A model generated the notes under the pieces. That model did not search any database. It was not told the DNA's origin and worked only from the letters and a program-made list of their open reading frames with translations. From Balanoglossus misakiensis (lineage: Eukaryota; Animalia; Hemichordata), in assembly GCA_040954595.2 (NCBI GenBank), contig CM082586.2, positions 12,183,337 through 12,247,336 on the forward strand: a DNA stretch of 64,000 nucleotides, read 5' to 3'. Shown one piece after another: positions 12,600 through 40,924 of this stretch; the first letter of the stretch is position 1, and every line of letters starts with the position of its first letter. A program made the translations under genes and the position numbers.

Positions 12600-12839
12600 T
12601 TATTGTATTTCCCCATGTTTTAGGTCTCCATTTTGATTCACAATTTCATGTCAACAAGTTCACATTCTACCACCACATCACATCTACACATCAACTATCA
12701 CTGTGATAGAAGCTACCATTTTCAAGTTAAAGATATACAGTCACCGCAAATTTACATACACCCATATATGGCTGAAATAGATTATTTGCGGGTTCTAAAT
12801 AACATATGGCGGCGCTCTTTTTTTTCGCATGTGCCGCCC

Positions 12840-14319
12840 TACGGCGCGCCAAGTGTTTCAAAATTATTTATCATTATTTTATAGAAAATTGATGTCTTTT
12901 AACAAAAAAATACGTAAAAACAGAAAAAACTGATTGGTGGTTTAAAAAACGAGTGTAAAAAGTAATCCATCGTGGAGTAAAAAAAACAACAACAACAACA
13001 ACAAAAAACTAACACACACAGAAGAAAATCTCACCTGTTGTCAAAAAAAACCCACCAAGCTTACCAAAAAAACGTCCACAAGGCAGTTGCAAAAAAAAAA
13101 AATCACTAATTTGTCACAAAAAAAACACGCGCACATTTTTCACGAAAAACGCACACTTCACAAAAAATACACACAAAGTATTAAAAAGAACACTCTTTGA
13201 AAAAAAAGAGAGACTACAACTTTTAAAAATGCACACCCCCAGAACAAACAACACAGGCAAACATAGAAAAAACACGAACATGTTAGCCATAAAAAACGGA
13301 GATATTTGTCACCGAAAAAAAACCCCGCACTCATGTCACCCAAAAACTAACGGGCCACTTTAAAAAACGCAGATGCACTGAGGTTGCAAAAATAAGCACA
13401 TTTTTAATCCCCCGAAAAAAAAAACAGGCAATTTGAAAAAAAAACACACAGCAATTTGCAAAAAAAAAAAAAAAAAAAAGGAACATTTGTCACCCCCCAA
13501 AAAACATGCAATTTGAAAAAAAAACGCAGAGCAATTTACCAAAAAAAAAAAATATAGGAACATTTGTCACCCAAAAAAACCAGGCAATTTGAAAAAAAAA
13601 ACGCAGAGCAATTTGCAAAAAAAAATATAGGAACATTTGTCACCCAAAAAAAAACAAGCAATTTAAAAAAAAAAAAAAACGCAGAGCAATTTGCAAAAAA
13701 AAAAAATATAGGAACATTTGTCACCCAAAAAAAAAAAACAGGCAATTTGAAAAAAAAACGCAGAGCAATTAGCAAAAAAAAGAAAATATAGGAACATTTG
13801 TCACCCCAAAAAACATGCAATTTGAAAAAAAAAACGCAGAGCAATTTGCAAAAAAAAAAATAATAGGAACATTTGTCACCCAAAAAACAGGCAATTTGAA
13901 AAAAAAAACACGATATAAAATTTGAAAAAAAAAATATATAGGCACATTTGTCTCCCAAAATATTCAGGCAGATCCAAGTTGTAAAAAATGGTATATTTGT
14001 CATCCAAAAAATAAAATAAGCGTGTTTAAAAAAACGAGCATTCAGTTGTAAAAATAAATAATAGTCTTTAACAACTTGAAAAAAAAAACGGACGCATTTG
14101 AAAGAATAGCGTATGCGCATGCGCCGAAAAAAAAAATGAGTGAGAAATCCTGGGGAATAAATGCGCATGCGCAAAAAAAAAAAAAGTGAACAATCCTGGC
14201 TGAAAAAAAAAAAGTGAGAGATTTCGGTAGAGGAGTCTGGGTAATATTTGAAAAAAAAAAAACGGAGTCTGAAAAAAAGTTGAATTGAAGAAGAGAAAAG
14301 AAAGGGGAAACGCACAAAC
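12840..14319 (+). repeat. Left TIR (~1480 bp) with internal A-rich tandem repeats
   Basis: Reverse complement of 31908-33521. Repeated unit ggaacatttgtcaccc-An-caggcaatttg-An-cgcagagcaatttgc-An at ~13480-13960. Confidence 0.95.
14114..14173. promoter_or_regulatory. Pair of NRF1/EWG/P3A2-type palindromic sites in the left TIR (putative promoter of the cargo gene)
   Basis: TGCGCATGCGCC (14114-14125) and TGCGCATGCGCA (14162-14173) match consensus YGCGCAYGCGCR (the first with one terminal mismatch). A donor-like aag|gtgtgt follows at 14401. Confidence 0.6.
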
Positions 14320-15246
14320 AACTGCTAGGTGTCGAGATACGTGGGAGTGAACTCCGAAGCATCTTTTGGGCATCATCGTTATCAATCGACATCCACAAAA
14401 GGTGTGTATCATCTGTATGTTATATTTAAGTTTATTTTAACCGTGGATAGCTGCAGTGCATGATAAGTCGTTATTTTGCATGGATTGCATCATGTTTAAA
14501 AAATCATGTTATCGAGTGAACTTTCTTATTCTACTATTTCCGAAGTATAAAAGTTCAGTTGTGTCTTTTCGCATCGTTTCGCATATAGTTAGCTCTGCGT
14601 GACAGGGCTGTGTGACGAAGATCGACGCACGTTTTGAGTTCGGAATCGGCCGTTTTTGGTAAGGAAACCATACCGCAACAAATCCGTTGAGTTTCGCCAG
14701 GTTTGGCTATGTAGCTTAGCAGGGCTGTGATTGGAGGCGTAGCCGTTAACAACACACAGCCCTGGTAGCTAAATTCCCACCGCTGGAGTGATGTAACAGC
14801 ACAGGGGACTCTCCCTCCGCGATTTTGTTTGTTTGTTTGTTGTTGTTGTTGTTGTTGTTGTTGATGATGATAATACCCTAACACTTACATGTCAACAAAC
14901 CATATTTATTAATAAAGAAATATGTATTTGTTTATTATGCCAAAAATCACCATCATCATCATCATCAACAACAACAACAACAAACAAACAGACAAAATTG
15001 CGGAGGGAGAGTCCCCTGTGGTAACAGGGCAATGTGTTGCTTTGCGGCTTGCTGCCAACCGCCAGCGGTTGATGATAGTTTACCAAGACAATTAACTTAC
15101 ATTCTTGAATTGTATGTAGTATTTCACATAGAGATGCATGGCATATTTTCATGTGTTACATTTTAACATACAGTTATTCCTCATTATGGTCTTTGTGAAA
15201 TAATGTTTCATATATTTTTCATATCTTCTTTCCAAAAGTCATCAGA

Positions 15247-18200
15247 ATGGATAATACACAAAGGTCAGAAATACAAAGAACATTGGACTCAATGGACACA
15301 CTTGAAGTAAGAACAGCCGTAAACAATTTATTTAGGGGAAGAAGGCAGCCAGCTCAAGTACAACAATTACACAACACACCACATAACACCAGCCGCGCAC
15401 AAAATCCTAGGGACACATCAAGAAAAACTGCTGTATTTCCTCGATCCACAGCTGTATATTTACCCAAATCAAGAATGTACCATATGAAACTGTGTGTCCT
15501 AAAATATGACGAAGCAGTCATGATTGACACAACAGGAACTGTACATAACTGTGATGGAGACTGGCTTTTCAAAGGTGACATTTGCTTAGAAAGTAAATGG
15601 AATGATATACAGGTGGAGCGAGAAATACAGAACATGATAAGCCTTGCATATCCAAACTATATGGAAAAATTCAAGTTTGTGGATGTTCCACGCAAGGGTT
15701 CAGTCCAGTTACGAATCGTTTCCCGCTCATTCAAATATACGGCAAAAGCAGTATGGGATACAAGGAGTTTGAATAAAACCATCTATGTCATGCTTGATTC
15801 AGAACATGACCACACCCAGGAAACTGCCAGCATTCAGCATTATCAGAGGTGTTCAAATGTTGTAGATACATATAACAGTACAGTGACTGCAGACGCGTCC
15901 CTCCAGTCCCCATCCATGGTACTTGATGAAGTCACCACTGAGATTGAAGGAAATACTACTACTTTGCAAAGCCATGATGATGAAAGATATGCATGCACTA
16001 CCGTTGTCCAACCTCTTCAAACAGAAAATGATACAACTATACAGCCTTTAAGTTTCACATCTAATCGGGCCATTGAAGACACTGTGCCATCTCCAACAAG
16101 TGAATCAATAAGATTAACAAGTACAATACATGATGATACAACAATGCAGCTAGTGCCTTTAAGTTTCCCAGACAGTGTATCCAATCAGGCGAGTGAAGAC
16201 AGGCCATCTCCATCAAGTGAACCAATGGGATTAACAAGTACAACTCATGACACCCTATGCAATGGACCTCAATCAACCACTGGACAGAGTCCAATTGGTA
16301 GACAACACCACCAAATGGAAAGTACTGCCAAGAGACATAAAGGAAATCCAAAGAATGTAAGTATCCTGCTCAATAAGTCTTCTCATGTTGTTTAGTTTCA
16401 ATAAGAGAGCTGTGCTCAGGCTGATGACGTGCTTGTGAGTGAGTGAGTGAGTATGTTTATGTTTGATCAACTGTACGCATCACAATTTTTTAATACAGCT
16501 GCTTCAATTCAAAATTTATGAAAGATAAAAATGAAAATATGGAAACTATTTCTTTGAATATTGTCCTGCCCCCCCCCCCCTGACAAATTCCTAGGGGGTG
16601 CTAACATGTCAACAGGTGAACCCCTTTGGTCGAATTGTGTTAACATACAAGTGACATTGACAAAAGTCACATAAAGACAATTAATGCCATGATTTTCTTA
16701 TTTGTAGGAGTGCACACTGAGAGACATGATTTGTACTGATGGTGCAGAGCAGCTTGTAGATTACGGTAATGTGAACCTAAGTACTTATTCAGCAAAGACA
16801 CATTCATCCTTGTCAGAAAAAGTAAACATGCATGATCAAGGGAGATGTAGTCTGATGTAGATTGAGTCATGACTTTTGAATATAAAAAAATGACGTTCTT
16901 GCCCTCAGTAAAATTTACTTGAATTTGCAAGATAAGATCAGTTGGTGCACATGCATATATTGTTCAAATGTCCATTATGTACTAGAATCCAAATAGTAGT
17001 TTAGCTGTGCCGATCTTCAATAAAATAAAACCTAAGGTTTGATAGCACTCTGAGATCCCCTAATTTCTTATGTTCCAGCATAAATCAGTTGATCTCAGTG
17101 TGATCAAATCCTTAATACTTACCAGATTATGACCCCTCAACTTCTGACCTTTAGCCATTCTGCCATTACATGTAATTTCAATCATGCACTCTTGGCTTGT
17201 TAGAAATGTCTGTGCCCTTCTTTCCAAGAAAACAAGAAACTTTAAAAGGATGGTGACGGGGATATTGCCTTGTTGATAATTGAAACAAATTACTAGCTTC
17301 CACTATATGTAGTGTGTTTCTCACAACAGGTCTACCAAACCCTGGCAATTACTGTGCAGTCAATGCGGTGATACACCTTCTTGCATGCATAAAACCAATT
17401 ATGGAATGTTTATCTGAGGTGGTTTCTGGTGGTCCATGTATTGAAGCTGTCATTGAGGTATGTCAAACTTTTCATTTCAAGTTATGCAAATTGTCTTTAG
17501 GTATTGCAGACTAAATGGGCATTACGATGACCTACTGAGTCATATGATTAGGTCCCATTGGTATAGGCATATATACCATGGGACCTTATGGGATCGGTTG
17601 CGTCTGTATGTATGTATGGATGGATGGATGGATGGATGTATGGATGTATGTCTGTATGTCCGTCCACATCAAAAACTTGAAAACCGCTGCGCGTATCACC
17701 TCAATATTTGGTGTGTAGGTGCAGGCTGGGCTGTAGATGGGAGTTTGTCCAAACGAAGTTGCCAGGCCCAAAAATATGCAAAATAGCTGGAAAAATGTGA
17801 AATTTATCAAAACTCTGAAAGTCAACAACTACTTGTCAGATTGCTTTAAAAATTGGTATGCATGTACCACATGTCAACTTCACATCGACCTGTAAGTGTT
17901 AAGTTAATATAATGGATGTTTTATTTTTTATGAATTTTTTAGTCTTTTTATTAAATTTATACCTTTACTTATATCTCTATGGTTAAGCTATGTCCACGTC
18001 TTATTGTGGAATTCTGGTCTGTGCAATAGTCCTGTAATGTGACTGTCTATTGGTCAGTGAGCACAATGGGGCCAAAATAAAAGGCAAAATTTTGGGCTCA
18101 CCTGTAACACCTGCTTAACATATTAATTATGTGCTTGCCTAATTCCGGGCTAACTAATAGGGCTAGAGGTTTCGTTCTTGTGGGACATGGACCAGTATAG

Positions 18201-21200
18201 GGTCAAAATTTCTTGCCAAAATTTTGGGTGACCTCAGGTGACCTTTGACCTACTTTCCTATATCTCGGCATCCAGAGCAGGTACAGACTTGGCGTTTGGA
18301 GGGTTGGGACTAAAATTGAAAAGCCAACATATTGGTCACCTGTGACACCTGCATATCTCATTTATTATGTGCATACCTAATTCCAGGCTAACCAATAGGG
18401 CTATAGGTTTGGTTTTTGTTGAACATGGACCAGTATAAGATCAAAATTTATTGCCCAAATTTTGCATGACCTCAGGTGACCTTTGACCTACTGTATCATA
18501 TCTTGGCATCCAGAGCAGGTACAGACTTGGCGTTTGGAAGGTTGGGACTAAAATTGAAAAGCCAAAATTGGGGGTCACCTGTGACACCTGCATATCTCAT
18601 GAATTATGTGCATACCTAATTCCAGGCTAACCAATAGGGATATAGGTTTGGTTTTTGTTGAACATAGACCAGTATAAGGTCAAAATTTATTGCCCAAATT
18701 TTGCATGACCTCAGGTGACCTTTGACCTACTTTATCATATCTTGGCATCCAGAGAAGGTACAGACTTGGCATTTGGAAGGTTGGGACTAAAATTGAAAAG
18801 CCAAAATTTGGGGTCACCTGTGACACCTGCATATCTCATTAATTATGTGCATACCTAATTCCAGGCTAACCAATAGGGCTATAGGTTTGGTTTTTGTTGA
18901 ACATGGACCAGTATATTTGTCACCTGTGACACCTGCATATCACATTAATTATGTGCATACCTAATTCCAGGCTAACCAATAGCGCTATAGGTTTGGTTTT
19001 TGTTGAACCTGGACCAGTATAGGGTCAAAATTTCTTGCCCAAATTTTGCATAACCTCAGGTGACCTTTGACCTTCTTTTCCATATCTTGGCATCCAGAGC
19101 AGATATGCTTATTGCTATGTTGCTATGTGCTATGTTGGCTTGGGCCCGCTGCTTGCAGATCTGCTTGCAATGTCACCTGTAATTTTTATTCTGGTGTGTC
19201 ACTGTTTCCACATAATCCTCAAATGGGACCACAGTGTCCTTGACGCTATTTTTTTATAATTGTTTTCGCAATTTTCATGATAATTCATTATTTGTTATTA
19301 TTCTTGACGTTATGTTTCTGTCAGTACATGCAGTGAATTGGTTTGTATTCATTCAAGGTAATATGTCACCTTTGACAGGTATTTTGATGTATTATACTTT
19401 TTTTCATATAATTACAATTACAAAATTAACTTAACAAATACTCTCCATTACAAAAGATTAAAGCTTATGACTGTATTCTTTAAAAAATAGTTATTGTGTG
19501 CAGTCATAGCTTCTCACTTCTAATTTTACTGAAGTGAGCAAAGTTGTCTCTCACAGCATATAACAATTTACCTTCTTCTATGCCATAGGATGGGTTATAT
19601 ACTTGATATCAGTATATGGTAGTGTCAACATTATTAAGCCAAAAATATAATATCAGGAATTTTCATAAAACACTTTTTCATCTATCATTCCCATTTAAAT
19701 CTAGATGATATCTTTGATTGGTGAAGAGGATTGTTTGGCAGAATACGAAACAGCAGTAAGCCATTTCCTCAAGTGTATGCCACGGGATATGGCTGGCGGT
19801 GGGTATGACCCTGCAGAAGTGTTGGACGAAACCTTGAAAGTGTTGTGTACAGAAAATGAGGTACAGTATTTTCAATCTTGTCTGTGTTAATTGATTTTAG
19901 GTCAGTCTTACATTTGTTCTGATAATGTAACTGTGTCAAGTTTGTCGGACATGAACCAGCAAAAATTTATTTAAAAAGTTTTTGGTTACCTTAGGTGACC
20001 TTGACCATCTTTCTGATATCTCATTATCTGGCTCAGATACAGCTTTGGAATTCCGTGGGAACCACTTGGGCCCCACAAACCATGCCTGTAGATTTAGATT
20101 TTAGGTCCAATTTGATTTATATGTACATATATACCATGGGACCTTATGGGATTGGTTGCGTCTGTATGTATGTATGTATGTATGTATGGATGAATGTATG
20201 TCTGTCCACATCAAAAACTTGAAAACCGCTGCGTGTATCACCTTGATATTTGGTGTGCAGATGCAGGCTGGGCTGAAATGGGAGTTTGTTCAAATGAAAA
20301 ATTTGAATTTGGTCAAAACTCAGTGACTCAAGAACTACTGGTCAGATTGCTTTGCAAAGTGTGTGTATTTACTTTATTGAGTTCTTTGTAATTAGGCAGG
20401 AACCCCCTCCTGATATTTATACACACAGCAAATTCCTGCATGATAACATAACTGGCTAAGTTTTAAAGATGCCAGCTGTTCTATTTAGTGTATGTACAGT
20501 ACATATGCCATTGGCAGCTTATGGGTCAGTCAGTGTTTGCTCTTTGATCTCTCTCTTTCTCTATGTGTGTGTGTGTCTGTCTGTCTGTCTGTATATGGCC
20601 ATGTACTCTGGTGTAGACATTTTCTGGTGTAATCCCTCAATGGGACCACCGTGTCCTTGACGCGATTTTTTTTCTTCCAATTGATAGATTTTTTCATTCG
20701 TTTCATGTTTTATAGCATTTAGCACAGGTAATCCAGACAACTTTGGCAGGTACACGGAGACGGATCTGGATTTACGAGGATGAGGAATTTGAAGACGACA
20801 GTTATCGTCATATCCTTTGTTTGACCCTGCTGTTATAAGGGATTTAAGCTGTAACTGTTTGCTCTATTTTCAGTATTTTTGATCAGTGAATCAATTGCAG
20901 TTTTGTGGTCCTCTAACAACAGCATGCCATTTCTAGTACTGCACTAATAAACATAGGCTGTATGTGTGTAACGTAACATTGACCATTGTTATTGTTGACA
21001 AATAAATTCTTGTCCAGACTTTAATTACATTTTTGAATGTGGGGCATTTCTTCATACTATAAGGATTTGAACAAAAAACTGCAGGAGATAAACAAACCAA
21101 AATTACCTGTACTGAAAACATCGAAAAGTTACAGCTAATTTCCTGACTTAAGTATATATTTTTGTAACAAACTAGATTCTTCATGTTGACGAGACCAGTG

Positions 21201-24200
21201 TTCAAGTGCATATATATCCATAAATACTGTTGTACACAAACTCAGAAACTATGAATGGTTGTATGGTGATTTTATCACGCATATATAAAGTAAAAAGGTT
21301 GCTGCCCTGTGGTAGTAACTAACAGATGGTGAGATAATGTGTTTTCAAGAAGTAGGGGTGGGCATTAATTTGAAACTAAATTGGGCAGACCTTTTCAGGG
21401 TGTGATCATTTTATAGGGAAAAATATAACAAATGATACTGACATCATTGATTTTGCTGATGATTGTCAATTTAATATTCAGTTTTCCTATACATTACCTT
21501 GATACACCCCTGGTACGTTCTTCAACTAAACCCAGGATCATCAATTGACAGTATGCTAAATCATTTTCTCACAGAGAGAATGATTTATTGTTGGCGAGAC
21601 ATTCCTTCTAATGTGAAAGTCCAAATCAAAGACAGCATAGACGGAGCACCTGAACCTTCTGAACGTATGTTTTTTTATTTATTTGATTATACATGTACAC
21701 TTAGTTACTTTGCTATATGTTTCACTGTTACAAATATAGAACTGAAAATATAGTTAATTTTCATAATTTCTCTTTGAGGGGTCACTGTATAAATATTGAC
21801 ATTGTCACGGTATCAATTTACCCCCAGAGATACTACAGAAGTAGAAACCCTTAAATGAAAAAGTGATTGTCATTTACTCTACTTTAGGGAGAAGGGAGGA
21901 AAAGGAACATCATTTTGTTTGTTTTCTTCATTATAGATGACAGCGTAAAGCATGTTGACTTCTGGGTAACAGAACCCAATTTAATATGTTTGGGGATTCA
22001 CAGAAATGATGGTTATGGCAATAAGGTAGGTTTCATACTTTCTGTAGACTGATCATAAAAATGTTAATTATCAAGAGAAAGTGAAGTATAATTCATTGCA
22101 CCACAACATGTGACTTTTGCTGTAGTTGCTATAGGGCATAAGCTCCAGGTCATGAATGATTTGACAACTGAGATGAGACACAAGGATGCTGATCAATGCA
22201 CATACAGTAGCTGGGGCCAGTGCAGTATTGTCTTCTACATTTTTCTAAATACAGTCAACCAAAAGAATAAGTAGCTTCTTTTATCCTAGGTAGAGCAAAT
22301 GATTTAGGATAAATTTAAATTGTATACTATTAGTCTTTGAAAAGTTTGATGCTTTTGTGATATTACAGGACAATAGGAGTATAAAAATTCCGAGGTCGAT
22401 GACTGCTGAAGCACTGTTGTCTCCACAAGATTTCCCTGCATTCTGGTCACCCCCTGATATGGAAGTCACTGCCATAGTTGTGCATTCTGAAATAAGGGGC
22501 CATATAATGTTGTTAGTAAAGAAGGAGGCAGATACATGGTAAATATAGTCTGTTTGCTATGTTCTTCTTTGTCATCATTTCGTGTGTAAAGCTGTTAAAT
22601 ACTGAAAAGAATGAATAATCAATAACAGATCAGTTTTAGTGAAATTTAGTCTGTGAAGCCTCTTAATTGATGGTGCTCATGAGAACATGTATGTAATTGA
22701 CTGCAGAAAAGTGATAATTGATATAATTTTACAATTTCTTTCTTTGACAAATTACAATTAAAGATAAAGTTTGAGTCTCTATGCATGTTATATTAATGTG
22801 TTAAAACTTATCAAATTCCCTGCTATTGTTAACACATCTCATTTGTTTTTGTCTGTTCAGGGTCATGTATGATGATGACCATGTAACTGAATTTATCATG
22901 ACTTCTGCCATTCTGAAGTATCTACAAGGAGGCAATCAACAAGACAGTGTCAATATCCTTTTTCTCTTGAAACCAGAACAGACGCACGTTTCTTGTTACT
23001 TCATGTAACATGTTACAAAAAACTGTTGATTTTATAGTGGATAAAGTGATCAGTACACAATAATTTTTTGATGTATTTCACAAGTGTCTCAGTGCAGTCC
23101 ATTTTAGAAATTGATACAAGCTCTGCAGTTAATGTCTGTTTGTAGGTGATCACTATTACACAGTCCTTGTGTAAACATTAAACTACCGTACACTTTGAAA
23201 ATAAATAGAATATCAGTACTTTCAAAGAAAACTTTAAAGGCTGTAAAAGTGATGAACATGTAGTCATTCTAAAATGGAAAATAGAGTTTTGTTTGTCTTC
23301 CTTAATTACTCACTAATAGCTGTGTACTCAAAGGCCGAAATGTTCAGTCCTTACCCTTCAAAGCTGAGTGATGCTGTGAGGATATCTGCTAAAGAAAGGT
23401 ATTTTCCTGGTGACAAAACATCCAAACAAAAGTTTTAGTTGTATGCAAAAGGACAGAACATAACATCTTTCATTTTTTTGCACATTCTATGTAATCAGGC
23501 AATATGTGTTTACTGTATCAAATATTCTCATTCGACATTGTCTAGCATTCTAATATGTTACCACAGATCTGTATGTGTGAAGACTTTTCATGATATGTCC
23601 AATGTTTTTCTTCATTCTGGCAAGAGGTAAAGGTTATTGTCGTAATCAAAGCCTCATAATGTCACTGAGTGTGTACATGTACTATTGTACCACTTTTTTC
23701 TTTTATTTTCCCTGCAGACTTCAGGATTCTGTTGACTTGAGACAAATAAGTTGTGGATTAGGTAAATATTTATCATATGATAACAAACCATTTTTGTCCT
23801 TGCTGTTGAAAATGGAGGGATAAATGGCTTGTTTCTCATGGAAAAATGATAATATGTGACTTCTATATTTGATGTTGTTAATTTAGAAGATTTCCCTTCT
23901 GTACTGCTTAGGGACAGAGTTGATATGACAGGACGTGTTTTTTTTTCCTTTTAAAAGAGTTGAATAGAGAATTGGTCAGAAGACGAGTTGGGAGAAGACT
24001 AAAATCTGTTGTTGGGATGGAGGATATTAAGAAGAAAGTAGAAAAGCTTGCCATCTGCGCAATAAACAACAAAGCCCGGAGTACAATTAAGAAACAAGAA
24101 GAGGAGCCCCTAAATTTATTATTTTATGGGCCACCAGGCACAGGCAAAACTATGTTTGCTAGGTTGCTGGCAGGTATGTTTCTTTTTGTGTCCATTCAAT

Positions 24201-26468
24201 CTGTTACAATGTATAGAACTCATTAAACTTTAAAGCTGTAAATTTGTTTTCAATATTAAAGCTTCAGTATTTCTCGTTTTCGCATAAATTTTGTTTGAAA
24301 CGGCATCTTCAATTTCTAAAAGTACATGATAATTGATTCTGAATCTAACAGTTATCATGCCCAGCTCTGTTCATAAACACATACAATTTACAATATAACG
24401 AGTGAAGAATGACTTTCTGTCCGGACAGAAAGTCAGGCTCTGTGGACACACGTGACTACTGCGCATGCGCACTCAAATGTGAATCTATGCGGAAGAGGTT
24501 TGGTCGCCCCAAATCTAGCGCCTCAGCGAAGAAATGCGCACTAATTCGGCGAAATTCTGGGAAGATAACTATATGGGAGAAATCAGTCGATGGAACCAGA
24601 TCAAATCTGAAAATGGTCTGACATCAAATATCAAAGTGGCACGTTTGCTGATCGAGATGTACAACATTTCCGTTGTAAACAAACCCGCGCATCATTTCAA
24701 GTGTTACGGGCAATATTTACAGCTTGCATATAGCTACAGTTGCCCAAACCTTTCTTATATCTTCATTATGTAGTATTCCATGATGAATGTACAGGAAAAA
24801 CGGGCATTTTTCGATGATGAAAAATGGATACACACGAGAAATACTGGGGCTTTAACCTATAATTCTCAAATGTTTCAAAAAACACAATGCAAAAGTCAAC
24901 ACCCTTCGTAATTTAATGGTACAGTTTTCATTTCACAGAGTACCACTTTCACAGAACTGTGAGAAAATTAGTTTTACCTTCATTTTTATTACTTAATATT
25001 TTGTTCCAGGTGCAATATAAAGGATGATACCATAATAGGAAATCAAGTTTTATTCAATGTATAAATAGAGAGTTTAGGGAGTATTCCTAGTTTCTTTCCA
25101 CTTTGCATAGGCTGTACATGGTTATCTTATACCATAGGATTGTGTGTAAAAATGCAAGAAACCACCGATAAAATATTGTCATTTTCTTGAAATTGTCAGA
25201 AATAATTCAGAATGAGAATCAAAATCAATATCTGCAAAAATAAAATTTATGTCAGACCAGCTTGAGTCTTGGAGTCAGCTCATCTAAAAACTCCTACCAT
25301 GAAGATCTAAAGTGGGGAGAAGGGATGACTCAGCAATTTCCTTTTTTTGGGGGGTCATAAAATTGTCGCTAAAATTACCATTGCTTCTCCAATAATTTCC
25401 ATGTTTGTCTTTGAATCCACACGCACAATTGTCATATAACTAGATGAAATGTACACAGTGAAGTGGTGAGGGGGGGGGGGGGTATTTCCATATCATGTAA
25501 GTCAAAACCTAGTCTGGTAATTTCTATATTCTAGATACAGCAATCGGTGCAGTAAATTCAAAAGCATTTTTAGTCATGGTTCTACTTTGTGCTTTGCCAT
25601 TTCAGGATGCTTATATGATGTTGGTATATTAAAGGAAGAGAAAGTTGTTGAAGTACAGAGAGATAATGTTGTTGCTCAGTATCTGGGAGAATCAGAGAAG
25701 AAAATGAAGAAAAAGATCGAAGAGGCAGCTGGTGGATTGCTGTTTATTGATGAGGCATACTCACTATATAAAGGCAAATCTACGAAGGACTTTGGAGTTG
25801 ACATAATAAACACCCTTATGCACTATCTCACTGGTGACTGTATGAGAGATACCCCAGTATTTGTTCTTGCAGGATATAAGATGGAAATGGAGAAGTTGCT
25901 GTCAGCTAATGAGGGTCTCTTAAGAAGGTTCAGGGAACCATGGATCTTCCAGCCATACACATCTGAAGATCTGAAACAAATAGTGTGCAACAAGTTGCTA
26001 ATGCAGGGGTTCCAGTTTGAAAGTGGTACTGATGGTGAGATCCTGGCCCTGATAGAGGCTGTACCGCCTGGATTGCGTGTGAAGTTAAATGCAGGACTTT
26101 GTGGTCGCATTATCGACTACATGAAGGATAGCATCGATGATCGGGTTTGTAATCCATCCAACACGACAGAACTGTTACTTGTAAAGCTAGAAGACATACA
26201 CAGTGTCAAAGAACAGCTGAGTGGGCAGTGGGTTGATGATCCCAAAACACACACAACCATTGGGATACAGACTGATCATGTGGAACTGACAGATAGTACT
26301 ACAGAGATGATATCTATGAAATGCGTGAATGTCAATACACAGACAACTGGCCATGTGGAAACTGCACATACACATGCACAGACTGTGATGTTGGGTTCTC
26401 TGAACAAAGAGACGCAGACTGACCGACTGGCGAAACTGATGATCAAGGGACACAGACATATCATGTAA
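15247..26468 (+). CDS. Multi-exon transposon cargo gene: N-terminal domain + S/T-rich linker + USP-type cysteine protease + CbbX/SpoVK-family AAA+ ATPase + TQT tail (~1,090 aa)
   Basis: Exons 15247-16356, 16708-16765, 17330-17457, 19705-19860, (20400-20454 candidate), 21482-21664, 21937-22025, 22369-22538, 22861-~22994, 23320-23398, 23718-23761, 23958-24173 and 25606-26468. All are phase-compatible AG/GT except two uncertain donors (20454, ~22994). Motifs: Cys box GLPNPGNYCAVNAVIHLL; His box AIVVHSEIRGH...WVMYDDDHV; Walker A GPPGTGKT; AQYLGES; Walker B LLFIDEAY; VLAGY; NEGLLRRF. Confidence 0.8.
17548..19160 (+). mobile_element. Helentron/HINE-like non-autonomous element in a cargo-gene intron
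   Basis: The 5' ttaggtccca...tgggacc hairpin is followed by a (GTAT/GGAT)n microsatellite and ~4.5 tandem ~240-bp core units (18095-19100). A related 5' end lies at 20101-20360 and an inverted copy ends at 54343. Confidence 0.6.
24260..24851. mobile_element. Kolobok-like MITE in the intron splitting the AAA domain
   Basis: ttaa|agcttcagtatttctcgt ... acgagaaatactggggct|ttaa. Confidence 0.8.
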
Positions 26469-26544
26469 AACTGAGGTCAACAATGGGACAGAGACTAGTT
26501 TGACTTTCTATTATGTCTCACCAGACAGGTACAATTATCAAGAG

Positions 26545-27415
26545 CAATCTGATTAAAATTAGATGTAGTGTTGGGCGCCATATTTACTTTTGCTGATTCT
26601 TGGCTGTTCTGTTAAAAAGAGACGCCCACACTACATCTAAACCTATGCCATAGAAGATCTCAATCAGAGCGGTAGTCTCGGTTACCCAGACGCCTTTGCT
26701 CTTCCGATGCTCTCCAGAAAAGGGTCTGGGGAAATACTATTGAAAGCTTTGTAAAACAAAATGGCCGATGTCAGGATTTTGATCATCGCCTGCTTGGCTG
26801 AGCTGTCAGTATGACCTTGGTCACTGATTCTCGACAATGTGTGATTATTTGTCATATCTTCATATCAAGAGACCGGTACTTGTTGGTTGATGCGAAAGGC
26901 AAAAGGCGTCCTCTGTTAGCATTGTTGGAGAAATTATACGAAATATCTTTAGTAGACGATTGTCGAAACTATTGCAGTGACCCGGGTCATACTGACAGCT
27001 CAGCCAATCAGGCGATGATCAAAATCCTGACATCGGCCATTTTGTTTTACAAAGCTTTCAATAGTATTTCCCCAGACCCTTTTCTGGAGAGCATCGGAAG
27101 AGCAAAGGCGTCTGGGTAACCGAGACTATCAGAGCGGTTGTTTAGAAAACTGGAGGTGTGGAAAAACAAACAAACTTGAACAATAGAAGTTAGTTTCCAG
27201 CGCGTGGCCAGTTCCGAAGTGTTAGGAAAGCCGCTCTGTGATTGGTCGAATGGATCCATTTGCCAAAACTAGATGTTCTATGGCATAGGTTCAGAATGAT
27301 GTAGTGTGGCACGTACACCAAGAACAGCCACGGCAGAGAACAGAACAGCCAAGTCAAAGACAGAGAACAGAACAGCCAAAGACAATGCCAAACTTATCTG
27401 ATTTTAACCAGATTG
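26545..27415. mobile_element. MITE with 9-bp TSD (MULE-like) in the cargo-gene 3' region
   Basis: TIR caatctgattaaaattagat / atctgattttaaccagattg; flanks tatcaagag and catcaagag. Confidence 0.7.
26673..27128. mobile_element. Nested foldback MITE with TAG..CTA ends and 9-bp TSD (AcademH-like)
   Basis: ~154-bp near-perfect TIRs starting tagtctcggttacccagacgcc; exact TSD tcagagcgg at 26664-26672 and 27129-27137. Confidence 0.88.
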
Positions 27416-28532
27416 CATCAAGAGCAGAGAGGTGGTGAACAATTATCCCTTTCACCTCTCTGGTGCCGTCCAAATCCATTGTTCTCTATGGTAAGGTTGG
27501 ACCTCTAGAGGGAACTGGGGGTGAAAGGGTTAAGGTCATATTGTAATTCACTTACAAGCATTTAAATATTCTTATATGAAAATGAGTATTATTCTTATAT
27601 GCAAAAATAGCTCTATACTATTATAGCTCCTATCACAGCCGTTTTAGTGATCTTTTTCACTCGTTTTTTTGTTTCAAAGCTGTTTTATTATTCCTTAAAT
27701 CATGCTAGAAATAGGTGATCATTTTAATGTGGATGTAATTTTGTTGATTAAAGCACCACATGGTTCTGACTCAGAAAAAGGTTTTTCTTTGGTTACTTGA
27801 ATAGCTGTAACTTTTGACGTTTTTTTTTAAATTATTTAGCTTACCAATGCAACATTGACGTGTATACAGAAGCATTATTATTATAAATTGCATTCAACTT
27901 GGGACACAAAAGCATTTATCAAAAATAACATCGGTCATTACACATGCACTGGCTATGTTGACAACCAGAACACGGCCATATGTAGTAGAACAAGAATCTG
28001 GTAATACACAGAAGCAGAATACGGATAAAACAGTAAAATGTTACTACTAATGTTGCTTTAAAATGGCATAAAGTACTGACCTGTGGTAGGGGAAAAAATT
28101 GGCATTTTCTGAAACCTTGGTGTAAATGGATTGATAAAGGCACTACTTGTACACACCAGTGGACTTTAGTATTTCCATTTATTGACAAAAATCTTCAAAC
28201 CAGGTCAAAATGTAGGTGTCAATCTAAACACTGTCCCTGTTATTTTTTTATGTACAAGAAAACAAAGTAACTGCTACCTATATGATTTTGTGGAATACCA
28301 AGTCTGACATCAATAAATGTTTACAAGTTTTTTCTATGGTGTATTGAGCCATTAATAAAGTGTGTTTTTTTTTTTGCAATGATGTCTTGTTGCTGTAATC
28401 AGAGCACATTCTTCAGTTCAGCATTGCCAGTTAAAAAGATACATTAAAATGTCAATGAATAATAACAATGTCGCAAACATTTTCATTTCTTCTTATCTCT
28501 TTGATAAATGGCCAAAGTACATTACATGTTAA

Positions 28533-28871
28533 AGCCTCTGGAGCTGCCACTTTTGCATTATTTTCATGAATTAATTTAAATTGGTCCATCAAAATAAGCT
28601 TGCTGTTAGGTATAAACAAACATCTTATCCATGCCTGATCATGGCTGTATATAGCGATCTGAAAACGCCATGTATGAAAACGGTGCCGCACCGATTTAAT
28701 CAGCTTCCATACAAACAGTACGAGGCTATATTTGTATATGTCGCCAAGAGATGACAAACTGATGCAAATGCAAGTAATATGGCTTAATGGTGAGGATTTT
28801 AGAGGATAGGGAATATATTTGAAGTATTTTACTGTGGAAAAAATATGCAAAATTTGGCAGCTATAGGGGCT
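28533..28871. mobile_element. Kolobok-like MITE, same family as 12295-12599 (inverted)
   Basis: ttaa|agcctctggagctgccac ... tggcagctataggggct|ttaa; the interior is the reverse complement of 12330-12425. Confidence 0.8.
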
Positions 28872-30549
28872 TTAAAGGTATACAGTCTCCGATGCAAATT
28901 AAGCCACATGTACCAGCATGGAAAGTGGAAATTTAGCCACTAATATCTCTTGTTTTCAGTAGGTAGCCATGTGAAAAGAAGTGTGCCACTTCATCATGGT
29001 TATCAAAAGATTTATACACACCCTTGTAACCATACATGGGTAACCGGTATGTGTAAATTGGAGGTGATTGTATTTCTTTATGGATATTAAAATGACATTT
29101 GTCTGATTAAGGAACATGCTCTAGTGTAAATATCAATACCCTTTTCATCACTTGCTGCTAATGGATCTATCCTTTCCTGTAGAGTCTGAAAACATTGCTC
29201 ATAATTTGACAATTCAAATGTTGGTGATAGCATTTCATTATTTGATTCTTCATCACTGTTGACAGTGATGTATTCTTCATCACTGTTGACAGTGATGTCA
29301 GTTTCCACTCCATAAGTGGCATAATCTATGTTCTCTGGATCTAACAGTTCTCTGATAGCAGTTTTATCAGAATTTTTGAATGCAGTAACACTTTGCAGCC
29401 ACAGCTGATTCGGACTCAAATTGTGTTCTGTTTGCAATCTATGTTCATTCCAGCCTTTCCTAAAAACTGTCAGTGAATAATTTATACGAGGAAGAAAAAC
29501 AAAATGAAGACACAGTATCTCTATAGGATTATCAGGATTTAAAAGACCCTGGCATTCCATCTGTAGAAAAACATCACGATAGTATTCCAAACAACATTTA
29601 AATGTATCTTGATGTAATCGTTCAATTCTTTGATTATAAATTGATGATCCAACAATGTGTGAACCTCTGTTGTCTCCACGGTGTGCCAGCATGAAAGCTG
29701 CAACCGTTGTATTTTCCATCCCATAATCAGATCTGACACGGGACGGAATGCCATATTCTTGCACTGCACCAAGGAAACCATCTAAAACAGTTGATGCCAT
29801 CTTGTTGTTGGCAGCAATGAGGTAGACAACTACTCTAGAATACCCATCTATTCCACCATGAACATATAGTCCCCATCTTTGTAATTTTTCCAGGCCATCT
29901 GCAAAAAATGAAATATGTATTAAGCCTTATGAAACTCTTGATAAATGTACACGTAGATCAATTCTATTGGCAAGGAGGACTATACATCACACACTTATTA
30001 ATTAAGTTCAATATTCAGAAAAGCAGCAATCCACATACATAATTATGGTAAATGTTTCACTAAGAAATAAAATCAACATGGAAAAACAGCATCATGGCAA
30101 TGATGCTTAAGCTAGCTTCAGATTTAGTTTGGCATTCAGTTTTGGTTTCGTGGGATGCAGGCCCACTTCATAAAACTGCATTTCCAGCTTCCTCACCCAA
30201 ATTAGTCTTAAGTATAAAAAGAATATGCTGAAAGACGAGTACACATGATCAATTGCTCAATGTATGACATGTACAACATTTTAGCACTTTAAAGTTATAT
30301 TTAGATGTGGAAAATTATTTTTTTTATCACATCAAATATGTACCTCAGAAGTGCATAATTGATTGGAATGTAAATTAAATATGAACACGGCCAAATGTGA
30401 TCAAAATATTTTTCATTCTAAATAGGGTTTCCTAAACTACAACTATACAAATCAGCTCTTGATGCACAATTACTCTCCGTTACTCGAAACCGAAGATGTA
30501 TCTGTATCAGACTGAGTCTAACTTAAGCATCTTTATGACAACTGTTCAA

Positions 30550-30844
30550 TATTGAGTATTATATTATACCAGTATATTGATGGTGTAAATCACGCTATTT
30601 GATTGGTCGAGACACGACACGTGACCATGGTATATTAGCCATATACCACAGTCATATATCTTAGTCAAAGAAAATGCCTTTTTAAAATGTTTTATGCAAA
30701 GTTTCAATATACTGGCATAATATAATAGCAATAAAACACCCCCAGCCATGGTATACCACGAGATTTTGACCAGTTCGTGCGTATATGTCGTGAACTGGTC
30801 AAAATCTCGTGGTATACCATGGCTGGGGGTGTTTTATTGCTTAA
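30550..30844 (-). mobile_element. Hairpin-bearing non-autonomous element (Crypton-like, tentative) in the transposase intron
   Basis: ~50-bp palindrome agcaataaaacacccccagccatggtataccacgagattttgaccagttc at one end; family copies at 60661-60975 and 62926-63248. Confidence 0.6.
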
Positions 30845-30934
30845 ATACAATAGTTCCATTTGAAAACATGCAGTGGTTTTAAGATTTCACTGACACGCAT
30901 ACACCTACATAGATAGATAAATACATAAATAGAT

Positions 30935-31065
30935 ACATGATACATACATATTTACATGCATGCATGCATGCATGCATGCATACATACATACATACATACA
31001 TACATACATACATACATACATACATACATACATACATACATACATTACATGCATGTACGTACATA
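30935..31065. repeat. (TACA)n/(TGCA)n microsatellite
   Basis: Direct inspection. Confidence 0.95.
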
Positions 31066-31907
31066 CTATCTATCATAATAACTTTGTGTAATGTAAACTC
31101 TTACCAATATGCCATAAACTTTGTGCTGCCGCCACATTGTACACACCATGCCTTTTACTTTTCATTCTCAAGAGTGGCCAACGCAGGGCTCGTTCAAAAG
31201 GTTCAATCCTCTGGAGACTTTCTCTTATTCGCTGTCTTTGAACGGAAACTTTCATAGATCTCAGAATACCTTCCACGATTCTTTCTCCGCAATGCTTAAA
31301 AGTCGATTCCTTGATTCTGCGTATGTGCATGTCAAGATCTGCATCACTAATGGGATTGTACTTATCTGTGAAATCATACCCTAATGATTTCAATCTTCTC
31401 CATAATGTTTGACGAGATATTTGGAGCATTTCTGAGATATCTTTCATTTTGAACCCGTATTCGATAAATAATTGTACCTTGTCATCAATATCATATGGTG
31501 GACGTCCAGGTTCACCAGTTCGAATAGTTTCAGTCTCAGATAGTCCACAGTTCACATCACGAGACGTATTAACATTCCCAATCGTAACTCAAGAGCGAGG
31601 ACTGTTTCCAGAGTTAGAGCTCCATATTTCCAAAACAGATTGCAACGCAATATGTACAGAGTTCAAGCAATCCAGTAACAAATGAATGTCCTGCACAGAA
31701 ACGGCCATTACATGGTGCTGCACCGCTTCTCTTATGTTCAGTGTGTAACGTATCATAGAGACAGTTCTCTCGACCATGTTACACACCACTCGCCGGTCAT
31801 TTAGACCAGACGGTAACCTGTTTCTGTGGTCTGGAACAAGTATCTTCACTTCCTTCACGAAGGAATCCCATAACGGCGCCATGTTTGCTTCTCTTCGACC
31901 CTTATCG

Positions 31908-33521
31908 GTTTGTGTGTTTCCCCTTTCTTTTCTCAACTTATTTTCAGACTCCGTTTTTTTTTTCAAATATTACCCAGACTCCTCTACCGAAATCTCTCAC
32001 TTTTTTTTTTTCAGCCAGGATTGTTCACTTTTTTTTTTGCGCATGCGCATTTATTCCCCAGGATTTCTCACTCAATTTTTTTTTCGGCGCATGCGCATAC
32101 GCTATTCTTTCAAATGCGTCCGGGGTTTTTTCAAGTTGTTAAAGACTATTATTTATTTTTACAACTGAATGTTCGTTTTTTTAAACACGCTTGTTTTATT
32201 TTTTGGATGACAAATATACCATTTTTTACAACTTGGATCTGATGGAATATTTTGGGTGACAAATGTGCCTATATAATTTTTCTTTTTCAAATTTTATATC
32301 GTGTTTTTTTTTCAAATTGCCCGTTTTTTGGGGGTGACAAGTGTTCCTATGTTTTTTTTTTTTTCAAATTGCCTGTTTTTTTTGGGGTGACAAATGTTCC
32401 TATATTTTTTTTTTTTGCAAATTGCTCTGCGTTTTTTTTTTAATTGCCTGGTTCTATTTTTTTTTTTTTGCAAATTGCTCTGCGTTTTTTTTTTTAAATT
32501 GCCTGTTTTTTTGGGTGACAAATGTTCCTATTATTTTTTTTTTGCAAATTGCTCTGCGTTTTTTTTTTAAATTGCCTGGTTCTATTTTTTTTTTTTTTTT
32601 TTTGCAAATTGCTCTGCGTTTTTTTTTTTAAATTGCCTGTTTTTTTGGGTGACAAATGTTCCTATTATTTTTTTTTTGCAAATTGCTCTGCGTTTTTTTT
32701 TTTTTAAATTGCCTGTTTTTTTGGGTGACAAATGTTCCTATTATTTTTTTTTGCAAATTGCTCTGCGTTTTTTTTTTAAATTGCCTGGTTCTATTTTTTT
32801 TTTTTTTTTGCAAATTGCTCTGCGTTTTTTTTTAATTGCCTGTTTTTTTGGGTGACAAATGTTCCTATTATTTTTTTTTGCAAATGCTGTGCGTTTTTTT
32901 TTTCAAATTGCCTGTGTTTTTTTTTCGGTGGATTAAAATGTGATTATTTTTGCAACCTCAGTGCATCTGCGTTTTTTTTTAAGTGGCCTGTTAGTTTTGG
33001 GGTGACATGAGTGCGGGTTTTTTCGGTGACAAATATCTCCGTTTTTTATGGCTAACATGTTCGTGTTTTTTCTACGTTTGCCTGTGTTGTTTGTTCTGGG
33101 GGTGTGCATTTTTTTCAAGTTGTAGTCTCTCTCTCTCTCTTTTTTTTTTACAAAGAGTTTTCTTTTTAATACTTTGTGTGTATTTTTTGTGGGGGTGAAG
33201 TGTGCGTTTTTCGTGAAAAATGTGCGCGTGTTTTTTTTGTGACAAATAAGTGATTTTTTTTGCAACTGCCTTGTGGACGTTTTTTTTTTGGTAAGCTTGG
33301 TGGGTTTTTTTTTGACAACAGGTGAGATTTTCTTCTGTGTGTGTTATTTTTGTTTTTTTTGTTTTTTTGTTTTTTTACTCCACGATGGATTACTTTTTAC
33401 CCTCGTTATTTTTTAAACCACCAATCAGTTTTTTGTATTTTTTTACGTATTTTTTTTGTTAAAAGACATCAATTTTCTATAAAATAATGATAAATAATTT
33501 TGAAACACTTGGCGCGCCGTA
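31908..33521 (-). repeat. Right TIR (~1614 bp)
   Basis: Mirror of the left TIR; longer because of extra internal repeat sub-units (32250-32930). Confidence 0.95.
32038..32097. promoter_or_regulatory. Mirror pair of NRF1-type sites in the right TIR (putative transposase promoter)
   Basis: TGCGCATGCGCA (32038-32049) and GGCGCATGCGCA (32086-32097), 155-215 bp upstream of the transposase ATG at 31882. Confidence 0.6.
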
Positions 33522-34696
33522 GCCACCCACTGAAAATCCGTGATTGGCTAGATCTCAAGTTAACGTGGTAACTGTAGCTAAATTTCCATAGGTGACCGTA
33601 TACCTTCTCTACACGTACTGTTGACTGACACACACAATCCCCTAACTCTCAACACATACATACAAAGACCCAACCCACTCCACGTGTAGTCTCCATGGCC
33701 ATGCCACCTAGCCCGCAGGCTACCACATCCAAAAGCATACACACACACAATACATGTCAATTTTACATGAGGAGCGGCTCATGTTCTTTATTCTAAACTT
33801 GAATGATATATAAACTGAAAATTTACCCCGCACCAAAACCCAGAGATAAAACCCTTTTTTCAGGATAAGGGGAAAAAACTCTGGGAAAGCGTAGGTAATT
33901 CACCAACTTTACAAAAAATTCTATTTCTAAATTCATGCCTCTTTCTGCCTCACAGAAAGAAAATGTTGGAAGTTTTACAATACCAAGCAAAATTTGGTAT
34001 TGTAGGTCTAAACTAAAACTGACAAAAATTAATATTTCATCTCTGAATGAATAAAGTGTTCTCAATAAATCATAATAGGTTTGGTGTTACACTGTTCTAA
34101 ATGTAGCATTTACAATTAAAGGGCAACTACCTGTAATTTTTGGTACAGAATTGTTAATATTGACAAATGCATTCAATTGACTTGAATACAATTGTTAACA
34201 ATAACAATGCTGATTATGCATACCAGAAATCGTGGTGCATACATAGACCAAAATTACGTACTGAAAAATTTGTCAAATGTAACACATAGTGGACCTTAAT
34301 GTCTATAAGAATGAATCTCAAACAATGTCACGTGAACGTAAAATATTAAATTTCATATTAAAATACAAAAAGAATAAAGTCATACTATTGAACACTGCAC
34401 ACAGCAGTTGAGTCTAAAGTGACTAATGTACTGGGGGCGATCCCAAACAGAAACGGGTCATATAGTCATAAATATCCCCCACCCTTATAAAGACCCCTTT
34501 CTCCTTGGGATGGCTCCTGTGATAAAATGAAACTGTGCTAGACTTGAAGAGATATACGCAGGAAACCTCATCAGTTACAGCCACTGCGAAGACTTCATTG
34601 ATGATCCCCCCAAATTGGGGGGGGGGGGGGGGGGGGAATGTAGATGAATGTTGAAATCTTCAAAAGCAAATTGAAAGTGTTTTACTGTCAAAAAAG

Positions 34697-36350: not shown

Positions 36351-37106
36351 TTAAAAAGAAAAAAAATCATCAAAAATCAAAGCACTATAAACCTAGTAAT
36401 CACACAATGCATATACATGCAACGATGCAAATGCATTAAAAGTGTGATATAAAAATACGTAATTATGTCAAGTAAAGGCAAAATCATTAAGGTAATATTA
36501 AAGAACCTACTTGTGCACTGAGTCTGTTGATTGGGGTCGTCGTTGTGTGGGACTCGCTAGCAATGTGGGGAAAATCTATTGATTATCGACAGACTCAGTG
36601 GGCAAGACGTGACCATAAAATAGATATACCAACATATCAAACTGTTGAATACTACGCAAAAAAAAAAACAACTAATGAAATGATCCCAGGAAACTACACT
36701 GGACTTGAAGGATCTATTGCAAGTTTTAGTGGACTTGAAGTATTTATTGAAATATTTTTCTCATCATGAAATTAAGTTAGTCATGCTAAACTATGGTATT
36801 ATAAAAACATATTGCAATTGAAACCTTCTCATCTGTTATAGCCATTGGAAAAATTCATTAAAGACATACCCTAAAAAATAGGAAAAAGAACACAGACAGA
36901 TAATAAAATCCTAAAAATTTAAAAATGCACACACATACATACCGTATTCTTTATTTATAATATGGGAAAGTACAACGGAGCAAGCGACAGACGCGCGCGC
37001 GCGCGCAAAAACATAAATTGCTTGAAGACGGACTGCAATCTTGGGATTCTTGGGATCTTGTAGAGAACCAGCTTCATCAGATGACCAAAAACATCCTAGG
37101 TGCGGA

Positions 37107-38118: not shown

Positions 38119-38154
38119 GAGAGTACTCCGAGACATCCAACAATTTTGAAAATA

Positions 38155-40886: not shown

Positions 40887-40924
40887 GAATGTAATGTACT
40901 TCAATGGCTGGTTACTCAAATTTA

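What the first reader, a model, noticed from the sequence alone, without database searches (positions are those of the whole stretch)
12840..33521. Giant IS3EU-like transposon carrying a deubiquitinase-AAA+ ATPase cargo gene
Seen: 1.5-1.6 kb TIRs with TAC..GTA ends and a near-perfect TSD enclose exactly two spliced, convergent genes, a DDE integrase-type transposase and a USP-AAA+ fusion. About 4 kb is later nested MITEs, so the core is ~16-17 kb. Known: IS3EU elements have TAY..RTA ends; several prokaryotic DDE systems use AAA+ helpers (IS21 IstB, Tn7 TnsC, MuB, host ClpX for MuA). Inference: this is a two-component eukaryotic cut-and-paste system with its own protein-remodelling and anti-ubiquitin accessory. 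I do not recall this combination being described.
Basis: partly seen in the sequence, partly recalled or inferred. Interest (0 to 1): 0.93.

Follow-up and report, generated by a model that had tools for sequence, protein, structure and literature searches.

The report
Transposon carrying deubiquitinase-ATPase fusion gene
This 20.7-kb jumping gene of the IS3EU type, whose transposase is broken by a stop codon in this copy, carries a second gene that joins a predicted ubiquitin-removing protease to a predicted protein-pulling ATPase where many relatives carry a ubiquitin ligase, and that fusion likely serves to remodel or release the element's own transposase.

Summary
The element is real: 12840-33521, TACGG..CCGTA ends, TIRs of 1480 and 1614 bp (96.9% alike), a 7-bp target duplication and two convergent spliced genes.

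The second gene (about 1,090 aa) reads ubiquitin-like domain, linker, USP protease with its Cys-His-Asp triad, CbbX/EccA-type AAA+ ATPase. It is not a one-off capture. The fusion exists in Saccoglossus and Ptychodera, and a USP-like plus AAA gene faces a related transposase on metagenome contig L002. These transposases form one clade (SH-aLRT 95).

In 28 of 47 related loci with enough flank, the same position holds a HECT ligase, and some of these share the N-terminal domain. So this lineage likely swapped ligase for protease plus motor. The ATPase resembles the protein-threading CbbX, not IstB, TnsC or MuB.

The substrate is untested; the element's own transposase is my best guess (0.4). This scan found IS3EU with HECT on other DNA 12 times, never this form. 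Ten paper searches found no description; Repbase could not be checked. Verdict: new variant of a known kind.

The parts
12833..12839 (.). left target-site duplication (GCCGCCC)
   Evidence: sequence; empty-site consensus
12840..14319 (+). left TIR, 1480 bp, starts TACGG, internal tandem units of about 75 bp
15247..16356 (+). cargo exon 1: two N-terminal helices, ubiquitin-like domain (about residues 73-186), low-complexity linker
16708..16765 (+). cargo exon 2 (linker)
   Evidence: similar stretch in P0241 and P0244
17330..17457 (+). cargo exon 3: USP Cys box, catalytic Cys
   Evidence: (74% identical to P0244)
19705..19860 (+). cargo exon 4: USP, QDxxE-like motif
20716..20800 (+). cargo exon 5 (found by homology; donor weak)
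21482..21664 (+). cargo exon 6 (USP)
21937..22025 (+). cargo exon 7 (USP)
22369..22538 (+). cargo exon 8: USP His box, catalytic His
22861..22946 (+). cargo exon 9: USP catalytic Asp; end uncertain (22931, 22946 or 22994)
23320..23398 (+). cargo exon 10 (USP-AAA linker)
   Evidence: compared by eye with P0244
23718..23761 (+). cargo exon 11 (USP-AAA linker)
23958..24173 (+). cargo exon 12: AAA+ N-part, Walker A
25606..26468 (+). cargo exon 13: AAA+ pore-loop Tyr, Walker B, arginine-finger region, lid, C-tail, stop
29087..29898 (-). transposase exon 2: PF24764 rva_4 core, D260, D317, E352 (DD34E)
31105..31882 (-). transposase exon 1: N-terminal helical region, HTH; in-frame TGA at 31591-31589
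31908..33521 (-). right TIR, 1614 bp, ends CCGTA; its inner end lies 26 bp from the transposase ATG
33522..33528 (.). right target-site duplication (GCCACCC)
17562..19260 (.). largest nested repeat (with a 239-bp tandem array), in intron 3; borders approximate
26580..27500 (.). nested MITEs between the two genes; borders approximate
30550..30847 (.). nested MITE in the transposase intron, with other copies in the window

Best explanation
This is a non-autonomous copy of an IS3EU/GingerRoot-type DNA transposon whose second gene encodes a ubiquitin-like domain, a USP protease domain and a CbbX-type AAA+ ATPase, and this protein likely acts on the element's own transposase, predicted to strip or bind its ubiquitin and pull it off the DNA after integration. 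Shown: the anatomy, the three domains with their catalytic motifs, the stop codon, the same fusion in two other hemichordates, a USP-like plus AAA gene facing a related transposase on L002, and HECT ligase genes in the same position in most other relatives with enough flank. Inferred: the second gene is the element's own ancestral partner gene, whose ligase end was replaced once by protease plus motor. Predicted: the ATPase forms a ring and threads a polypeptide as CbbX does; the N-terminal domain picks the substrate; the substrate is the transposase or strand-transfer complex, the job ClpX does for MuA (recalled). On this reading the ligase lineages would tag the complex for host p97 or the proteasome, and this lineage would carry a private remodeller instead. 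The near-identical TIRs would give both genes the same promoter. This copy would move only with transposase supplied in trans.
For: Fusion in S. kowalevskii P0244 and P. flava P0247 (Pfam UCH E 1e-13, AAA E 3e-12 for P0247). Cys, His and Asp are kept in 3 of 3 hemichordate proteins. USP fold: TM 0.64-0.71 to USP models. Identity of window to Saccoglossus: AAA 129/170, USP 102/181, N-domain 62/116, transposase core 108/168, so the cargo is constrained about as much as the transposase. L002 has an intact transposase facing a USP-like plus AAA gene. Window, P. flava, Saccoglossus and L002 transposases sit in one 11-row clade, SH-aLRT 95, with none of the 28 HECT-linked rows. HECT-like ORFs lie convergent in 28 of 47 loci with at least 1.5 kb downstream. 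The N-domain matches that of HECT-type partners in L012, L035, L036, L037 (hhalign probability 80, E 1.4e-5, 0 of 100 shuffles). Best solved relatives of the ATPase are EccA1 and CbbX (E about 1e-20); the pore-loop tyrosine that CbbX needs for threading (PMC5437159, passages) is kept in window, P0244 and L002.
Against: Nothing here identifies the substrate. The P. flava link rests on accession numbers, not DNA; no link is shown for Saccoglossus P0244 or for the P. flava P0243/P0247 family. In L002 the catalytic His is absent, the gene is frameshifted and the Cys box lies beyond the contig. P0247 has a changed Walker A and His for the pore-loop Tyr. Transposase C-tails in the clade share no obvious motif (by eye). 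The class A N-domains were picked by eye for resemblance before the profile test, and class B N-domains did not match (probability 0.6, 10 of 100 shuffles). The ubiquitin-like fold is modest (best Z 6.5, rmsd 3.2 over 85 residues; no Foldseek hit under E 0.001). In the AAA trees the four cargo domains group with a long-branch SpoVK-like protein, P0087, at SH-aLRT 90. Fungal IS3EU partners are kinases and TET enzymes (PMC12730594, passages), which points to host regulation rather than transposition mechanics.
Confidence: 0.4

Rival explanations
1. The gene belongs to the element but acts on host silencing or surveillance factors: it removes ubiquitin from, or pulls apart, chromatin or defence complexes on the element so that it stays expressed.
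For: The same slot holds HECT ligases in relatives, a weak Ulp1-like ORF in L025 (E 0.0013, below the Pfam cut-off), and kinase and TET genes in fungal IS3EU, where TET is proposed to counter silencing (PMC12730594, abstract and passages). Helitrons carry OTU, UCH and Ulp1 domains (PMC11417382, passages).
Against: No DNA- or chromatin-binding domain was found in the cargo (Pfam). It does not explain by itself why cargo type tracks the transposase clade.
Confidence: 0.33
2. The gene belongs to the element and only stabilises the transposase against ubiquitin-dependent degradation or chaperones its folding; it has no role at the DNA.
For: An intact USP triad and a chaperone-type ATPase suffice for this.
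Against: L002 lacks the catalytic His yet keeps Walker A, Walker B and the pore-loop Tyr, which puts the motor rather than the protease at the centre, unless L002 is simply decayed.
Confidence: 0.15
3. The gene is a captured host or viral passenger with no role for the element.
For: GingerRoot elements capture gene fragments (PMC6839031, sections read). Atlas feature neighbours of the USP domain are giant-virus USPs, all under 0.9 and so leads only. Linkage is shown at DNA level in two places only (window, L002).
Against: No viral ATPase above 42% identity in the best 80 of 488 loci.
Confidence: 0.08
4. The family is no longer mobile here: the element inserted once and the raised read depth comes from duplication of a larger repeat in which it sits.
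For: The right flank is itself repetitive (X1 contig depth 509-823 against 264-340 inside the element). The stop codon and the nested-repeat junctions appear in the collapsed contigs too (records 8 and 16). No loose end showing another flank at 33521 is among the 12 rows shown of 161.
Against: A contig at the TIR end has depth 1545 and a second contig covers 31833 at about 1525 in X1, which suggests more numerous derivatives with the same ends. TIRs are 96.9% alike. This rival concerns age and mobility and is compatible with the others on function.
Confidence: 0.3

Closest known systems
IS3EU / GingerRoot superfamily (PMC10045372 passages; PMC6839031 parts 2-3 of 7 and passages; PMC8232023 passages)
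   Same: IS3-like DDE transposase (PF24764), TA..TA ends, TAYGG..CCRTA as in fungal IS3EU (PMC12730594), two proteins, partner gene in opposite orientation.
   Different: 7-bp TSD (usual 6; 5 of 77 GingerRoots have 7), TIRs of 1.5-1.6 kb against 100-150 bp in GingerRoot, 20.7 kb, and a partner gene ending in USP plus AAA+. None of the passages read names such a partner.
HECT-carrying IS3EU elements of animals
   Same: Convergent partner gene inside TATGG..CCATA ends; homologous N-terminal domain in class A partners; ubiquitin-system enzyme.
   Different: Ligase instead of protease plus ATPase; different transposase clades; 6.8-10.2 kb; clear 6-bp TSD in 3 of 5.
CbbX red-type Rubisco activase (PDB 3syk, 3syl, 3zuh), EccA1 (9lur), SpoVK
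   Same: Best solved relatives of the ATPase; Walker A and B, pore-loop Tyr.
   Different: Fused to USP and ubiquitin-like domains in an animal transposon; substrate unknown; source lineage not resolved.
IstB (IS21), TnsC (Tn7), MuB; ClpX acting on MuA (roles recalled, no call)
   Same: An AAA+ ATPase serving a DDE transposase is the working analogy.
   Different: No IstB, TnsC or MuB among the 10 PDB sequences at E up to 0.01; Pfam IstB scores 13.9 bits against a cut-off of 24.1 on the Walker A exon. ClpX is host-encoded.
Helitrons with OTU, UCH or Ulp1 domains (PMC11417382, passages)
   Same: A DNA transposon that carries a deubiquitinase-type domain.
   Different: Rolling-circle elements; no AAA+ fusion named in the passages read.

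Membership tests
IS3EU/GingerRoot | IS3/IS481-like DDE transposase with an HTH rather than HHCC N-terminus | tested here: met
   PF24764 E 7e-66; HTH_8 E 1e-4; no integrase zinc-finger family listed; D260, D317, E352
IS3EU/GingerRoot | TA..TA termini (TAYGG..CCRTA) | tested here: met
   TACGG..CCGTA
IS3EU/GingerRoot | TSD usually 6 bp | tested here: inconclusive
   7 bp with one mismatch, or 6 bp plus one base; 7-bp exceptions are reported; one insertion only
IS3EU/GingerRoot | two encoded proteins | tested here: met
   definition from PMC8232023 citing Kojima 2019
IS3EU/GingerRoot | groups with Repbase IS3EU transposases in a tree | not testable with these tools
   no Repbase sequences held; the tree has unnamed relatives and named animal proteins only
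autonomous element | intact transposase frame | tested here: not met
   TGA at codon 98 of 529
USP (C19) deubiquitinase | Cys box, His box, Asp and USP fold | tested here: met
   motifs in window, P0244, P0247; UCH E 1e-13 for P0247; TM 0.64-0.71. The five window USP exons scanned singly gave no UCH hit
USP (C19) deubiquitinase | cleaves ubiquitin conjugates | not testable with these tools
   needs an assay; His box is shorter than the canonical one (recalled comparison)
CbbX/EccA/SpoVK AAA+ | sequence kinship and Walker A, Walker B, pore-loop Tyr | tested here: met
CbbX/EccA/SpoVK AAA+ | hexamer that threads a polypeptide | not tested
   inferred from CbbX
IstB/TnsC/MuB transposition ATPases | sequence kinship to these DNA-targeting ATPases | tested here: not met
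   best solved relatives are EccA1 and CbbX at 1e-20; none of the three among 10 hits; IstB profile below cut-off
ubiquitin-like beta-grasp domains | beta-grasp fold of the N-domain | tested here: inconclusive
   model pLDDT 62 from 4 sequences; top rows are almost all RA, UBL, PB1 or FERM-F0 domains but best Z is 6.5

The most novel reading that the evidence does not exclude
A lineage of eukaryotic cut-and-paste transposons encodes its own AAA+ motor, fused to a deubiquitinase, to take apart its transpososome: a one-protein stand-in for the host p97/proteasome route that the ligase-carrying relatives would use. It would be the first element-encoded AAA+ helper of a eukaryotic DDE transposon that I could find, and the ligase-to-protease swap would be a natural experiment on how eukaryotic transpososomes are disassembled.
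Probability: 0.35. Interest if true: 0.88.

Novelty: new variant of a known kind. Interest (0 to 1): 0.72.

Why it matters
How eukaryotic transpososomes and intasomes are taken off the DNA after strand transfer is poorly known (recalled). IS3EU elements always carry a second protein of undescribed function. Here one lineage holds a deubiquitinase plus AAA+ motor where others hold a ubiquitin ligase: opposite enzymes in one slot. Any model of what the second gene does has to fit both, and two small cognate gene pairs make that testable. It also places a CbbX/EccA-type ATPase, known from bacteria and algae, in animal genomes as transposon cargo, where annotation lists it as an uncharacterized host gene.

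Tried and rejected
No genome is held for this window, so copies and their TSDs could not be collected. DNA around the P. flava and Saccoglossus genes was not read, so shared TIRs there remain open. No RNA holder was listed; this is no evidence on expression, and the splice model has no RNA support. Contig depth (X1: 264-340 inside, 27-34 for the lowest contigs, 509-823 in the right flank) hints at about ten collapsed copies, but the tool warns that depth is no copy number. The complex prediction of N-domain with transposase was not available, so there is no verdict on binding. The homolog search with the AAA exon among long proteins listed 120 of 373 hits, the named ones bacterial SpoVK-like or algal proteins, no USP-AAA fusion seen in the truncated Pfam lists. 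The search with the Saccoglossus USP region found nothing among 3029 candidates; the fused proteins are cluster members, not representatives. The N-domain found 3 proteins among 1.84 billion and no locus in metagenome or viral contigs; the transposase found none in viral contigs. The full-length P0247 model was poor (pLDDT 48) though Foldseek still returned CbbX and USPs. The origin of the ATPase is unresolved: one clade for the four cargo domains is not rejected (p-AU 0.586) but not shown; the careful tree did not finish. The five closest transposase loci besides L002 (L001, L003, L004 and others) have too little flank to show their partner. Rejected: IstB/TnsC/MuB kinship; the stop as a 5' untranslated region (upstream residues are homologous to P0125). 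Paper searches; those joining transposon terms with AAA, CbbX, deubiquitinase or HECT gave 0 papers, unrelated listings (69), or one paper whose only ATPase mention is a reference. The Kojima 2019 review is not held; Repbase and Dfam could not be searched; supplements of the papers read were not opened and may list partner proteins.
Full report
Observation. The element spans 12840-33521 with TACGG..CCGTA ends. The TIRs are 1480 and 1614 bp, 1370 of 1414 aligned bases identical. The flanks give GCCGCCC and GCCACCC. Contigs of two runs of one sample show the empty target: 51 and 65 records carry the right flank preceded by a consensus like the left flank without the 7-mer. The target is a high-copy repeat, so these are other repeat copies, not the empty allele of this locus. 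A 6-bp TSD plus one base fits too. Nested repeats make up roughly 4 kb.

Transposase. Two exons on the minus strand, 31882-31105 and 29898-29087, give 529 codons with D260, D317 and E352 and a TGA at codon 98. The core is PF24764 (E 7e-66). The nearest proteins are from Ptychodera flava (80% over the exon) and Saccoglossus kowalevskii (53%), so the source is likely an acorn worm. The residues before the stop align with the intact P. flava P0125, so the stop is a lesion. The run contigs over this place differ from the window at one letter each, which table 3 places at 31833, so the collapsed copies in that sample appear to share the stop.

Second gene. Thirteen exons, 15247-26468, all with AG acceptors, give 1083-1104 aa depending on one unresolved donor. 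Exon 5 was found through the Saccoglossus protein. The order is N-domain, low-complexity linker, USP, AAA+. The N-domain model (pLDDT 62, four sequences) matches ubiquitin-like domains at Z up to 6.5, a modest result. The USP Cys, His and Asp are kept in window, P0244 and P0247; P0247 scores UCH at E 1e-13 and its Atlas model matches USP models at TM 0.64-0.71. The ATPase is closest to EccA1 and CbbX among solved structures (E about 1e-20) and keeps the pore-loop tyrosine through which CbbX threads the Rubisco tail (PMC5437159, passages). It is not an IstB, TnsC or MuB relative.

Is the pairing stable? A search of 1.84 billion representatives with the N-domain gave 3 proteins, all from hemichordates. 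This is linkage by accession, not by DNA. S. kowalevskii P0244 is a full fusion. A second P. flava family has five records on three contig lengths, 99% alike where compared, as expected of a mobile gene; its transposase is unknown and P0247 has a changed Walker A. Among 80 metagenome loci fetched with the transposase (best 80 of 506), one, L002, has an intact intronless transposase facing a gene with a USP-like region (E 4e-5 to P0247) and the ATPase (E 2e-34 to P0244). Its catalytic His is missing and it is frameshifted; the contig is too short for TIRs. The window, P. flava, Saccoglossus and L002 transposases fall in one clade of 11 rows (SH-aLRT 95, quick tree of 85 rows) that holds none of the 28 HECT-linked rows; 8 of the 11 have no known partner. 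One origin for the four ATPase domains is not rejected (p-AU 0.586) but not shown.

What do relatives carry there? Pfam found HECT in 5 of 83 ORFs submitted (83 of 286 extracted). A profile grown from those five found a convergent HECT-like ORF at E under 1e-10 in 30 of 80 loci and in 28 of the 47 with at least 1.5 kb downstream. Many loci come from a few assemblies and some are near-copies, so these are not independent. In 5 of 22 longer loci examined, TATGG..CCATA ends enclose both genes (6.8-10.2 kb); 3 have a clear 6-bp TSD. The window's N-domain is homologous to that of HECT-type partners in L012, L035, L036 and L037 (probability 80, E 1.4e-5, 0 of 100 shuffles) but not detectably to a second class (10 of 100); the seeds were chosen by eye. 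The simplest history is that the element's own partner gene kept its N-domain and exchanged the ligase for USP plus ATPase.

Mechanism. Shown: anatomy, domains, motifs, recurrence. Inferred: the gene serves the element, since it is as constrained as the transposase and tracks its tree. Predicted: a CbbX-like ring pulls on a ubiquitinated substrate that the USP domain binds or trims. I rank the element's own transposase or strand-transfer complex first (0.4), by analogy with ClpX and MuA (recalled) and because one substrate explains both enzyme types in the slot; an earlier unchecked note of this scan reports a model docking a HECT partner on its transposase, which I could not test. Host silencing factors come second (0.33), since fungal IS3EU carry TET and kinase genes. 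Stabilisation alone (0.15) and passive cargo (0.08) follow. Whether the family still moves in this genome is open: depth suggests several copies and more numerous derivatives, but the flank is repetitive too.

Known and new. IS3EU/GingerRoot has TA..TA ends, usually 6-bp TSDs and two proteins; membership is met on transposase, ends and gene number, inconclusive on TSD, untestable on the Repbase tree. Deubiquitinase-type cargo has precedent in Helitrons, UCH included. I found no paper with an AAA+ or USP partner in IS3EU or an AAA+ helper in any eukaryotic DDE transposon; the Kojima 2019 review, Repbase, Dfam and supplements were not seen. This scan has 12 notes on IS3EU with HECT (read after my own survey) and none on this form.

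Verdict. A real, non-autonomous IS3EU-type element of a lineage that carries a ubiquitin-like, USP and CbbX-type ATPase fusion as its second gene. New variant of a known kind; interest 0.72. The bold reading, an element-encoded transpososome remodeller, has probability 0.35 and would deserve 0.88.

Noticed in passing
L025:13775-14680 (-): A Ulp1-like protease ORF (Pfam C48 E 0.0013, below cut-off) followed by a PHD-like Cys pattern lies downstream of an IS3EU-like transposase, beyond an ORF resembling a HECT N-lobe; possibly a third kind of ubiquitin-system cargo.
   Followed up: partly
L032:14680-15672 (+): RING plus B-box (TRIM-like) ORF about 4 kb downstream of an IS3EU-like transposase, same strand.
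   Followed up: no
window 31833-33521: A second run contig at about five times the internal depth covers the start of the transposase, and the TIR end is similarly deep: likely non-autonomous derivatives with the same ends.
   Followed up: partly
window 12790-12839 and 33522-33606: The element sits inside a very high-copy short repeat; dozens of contigs show the uninterrupted form.
   Followed up: partly
window 440-1777 (+): Reverse-transcriptase-like ORF of a LINE, interrupted by a stop at 1355-1357 (named from the sequence, no family scan).
   Followed up: no
window 34820-50390: A run of different tandem arrays (periods 276, 91, 280, 277, 229 and a CAT-rich array of about 368) with strong negative GC skew at 43000-52000.
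   Followed up: no
window 5985-6362 (+): Short ORF that reads like real protein (125 aa), possibly an exon or transposon fragment; not identified.
   Followed up: no
window 26220-26465 (+): The cargo C-tail has several repeats of a short 'QT(D/E)' motif, resembling TQT-type dynein light chain LC8 binding sites (recalled); not tested.
   Followed up: no
L081-L160: CbbX-type ATPases are common in phage and giant-virus contigs (488 confirmed stretches) and the giant-virus ones form their own clade.
   Followed up: partly
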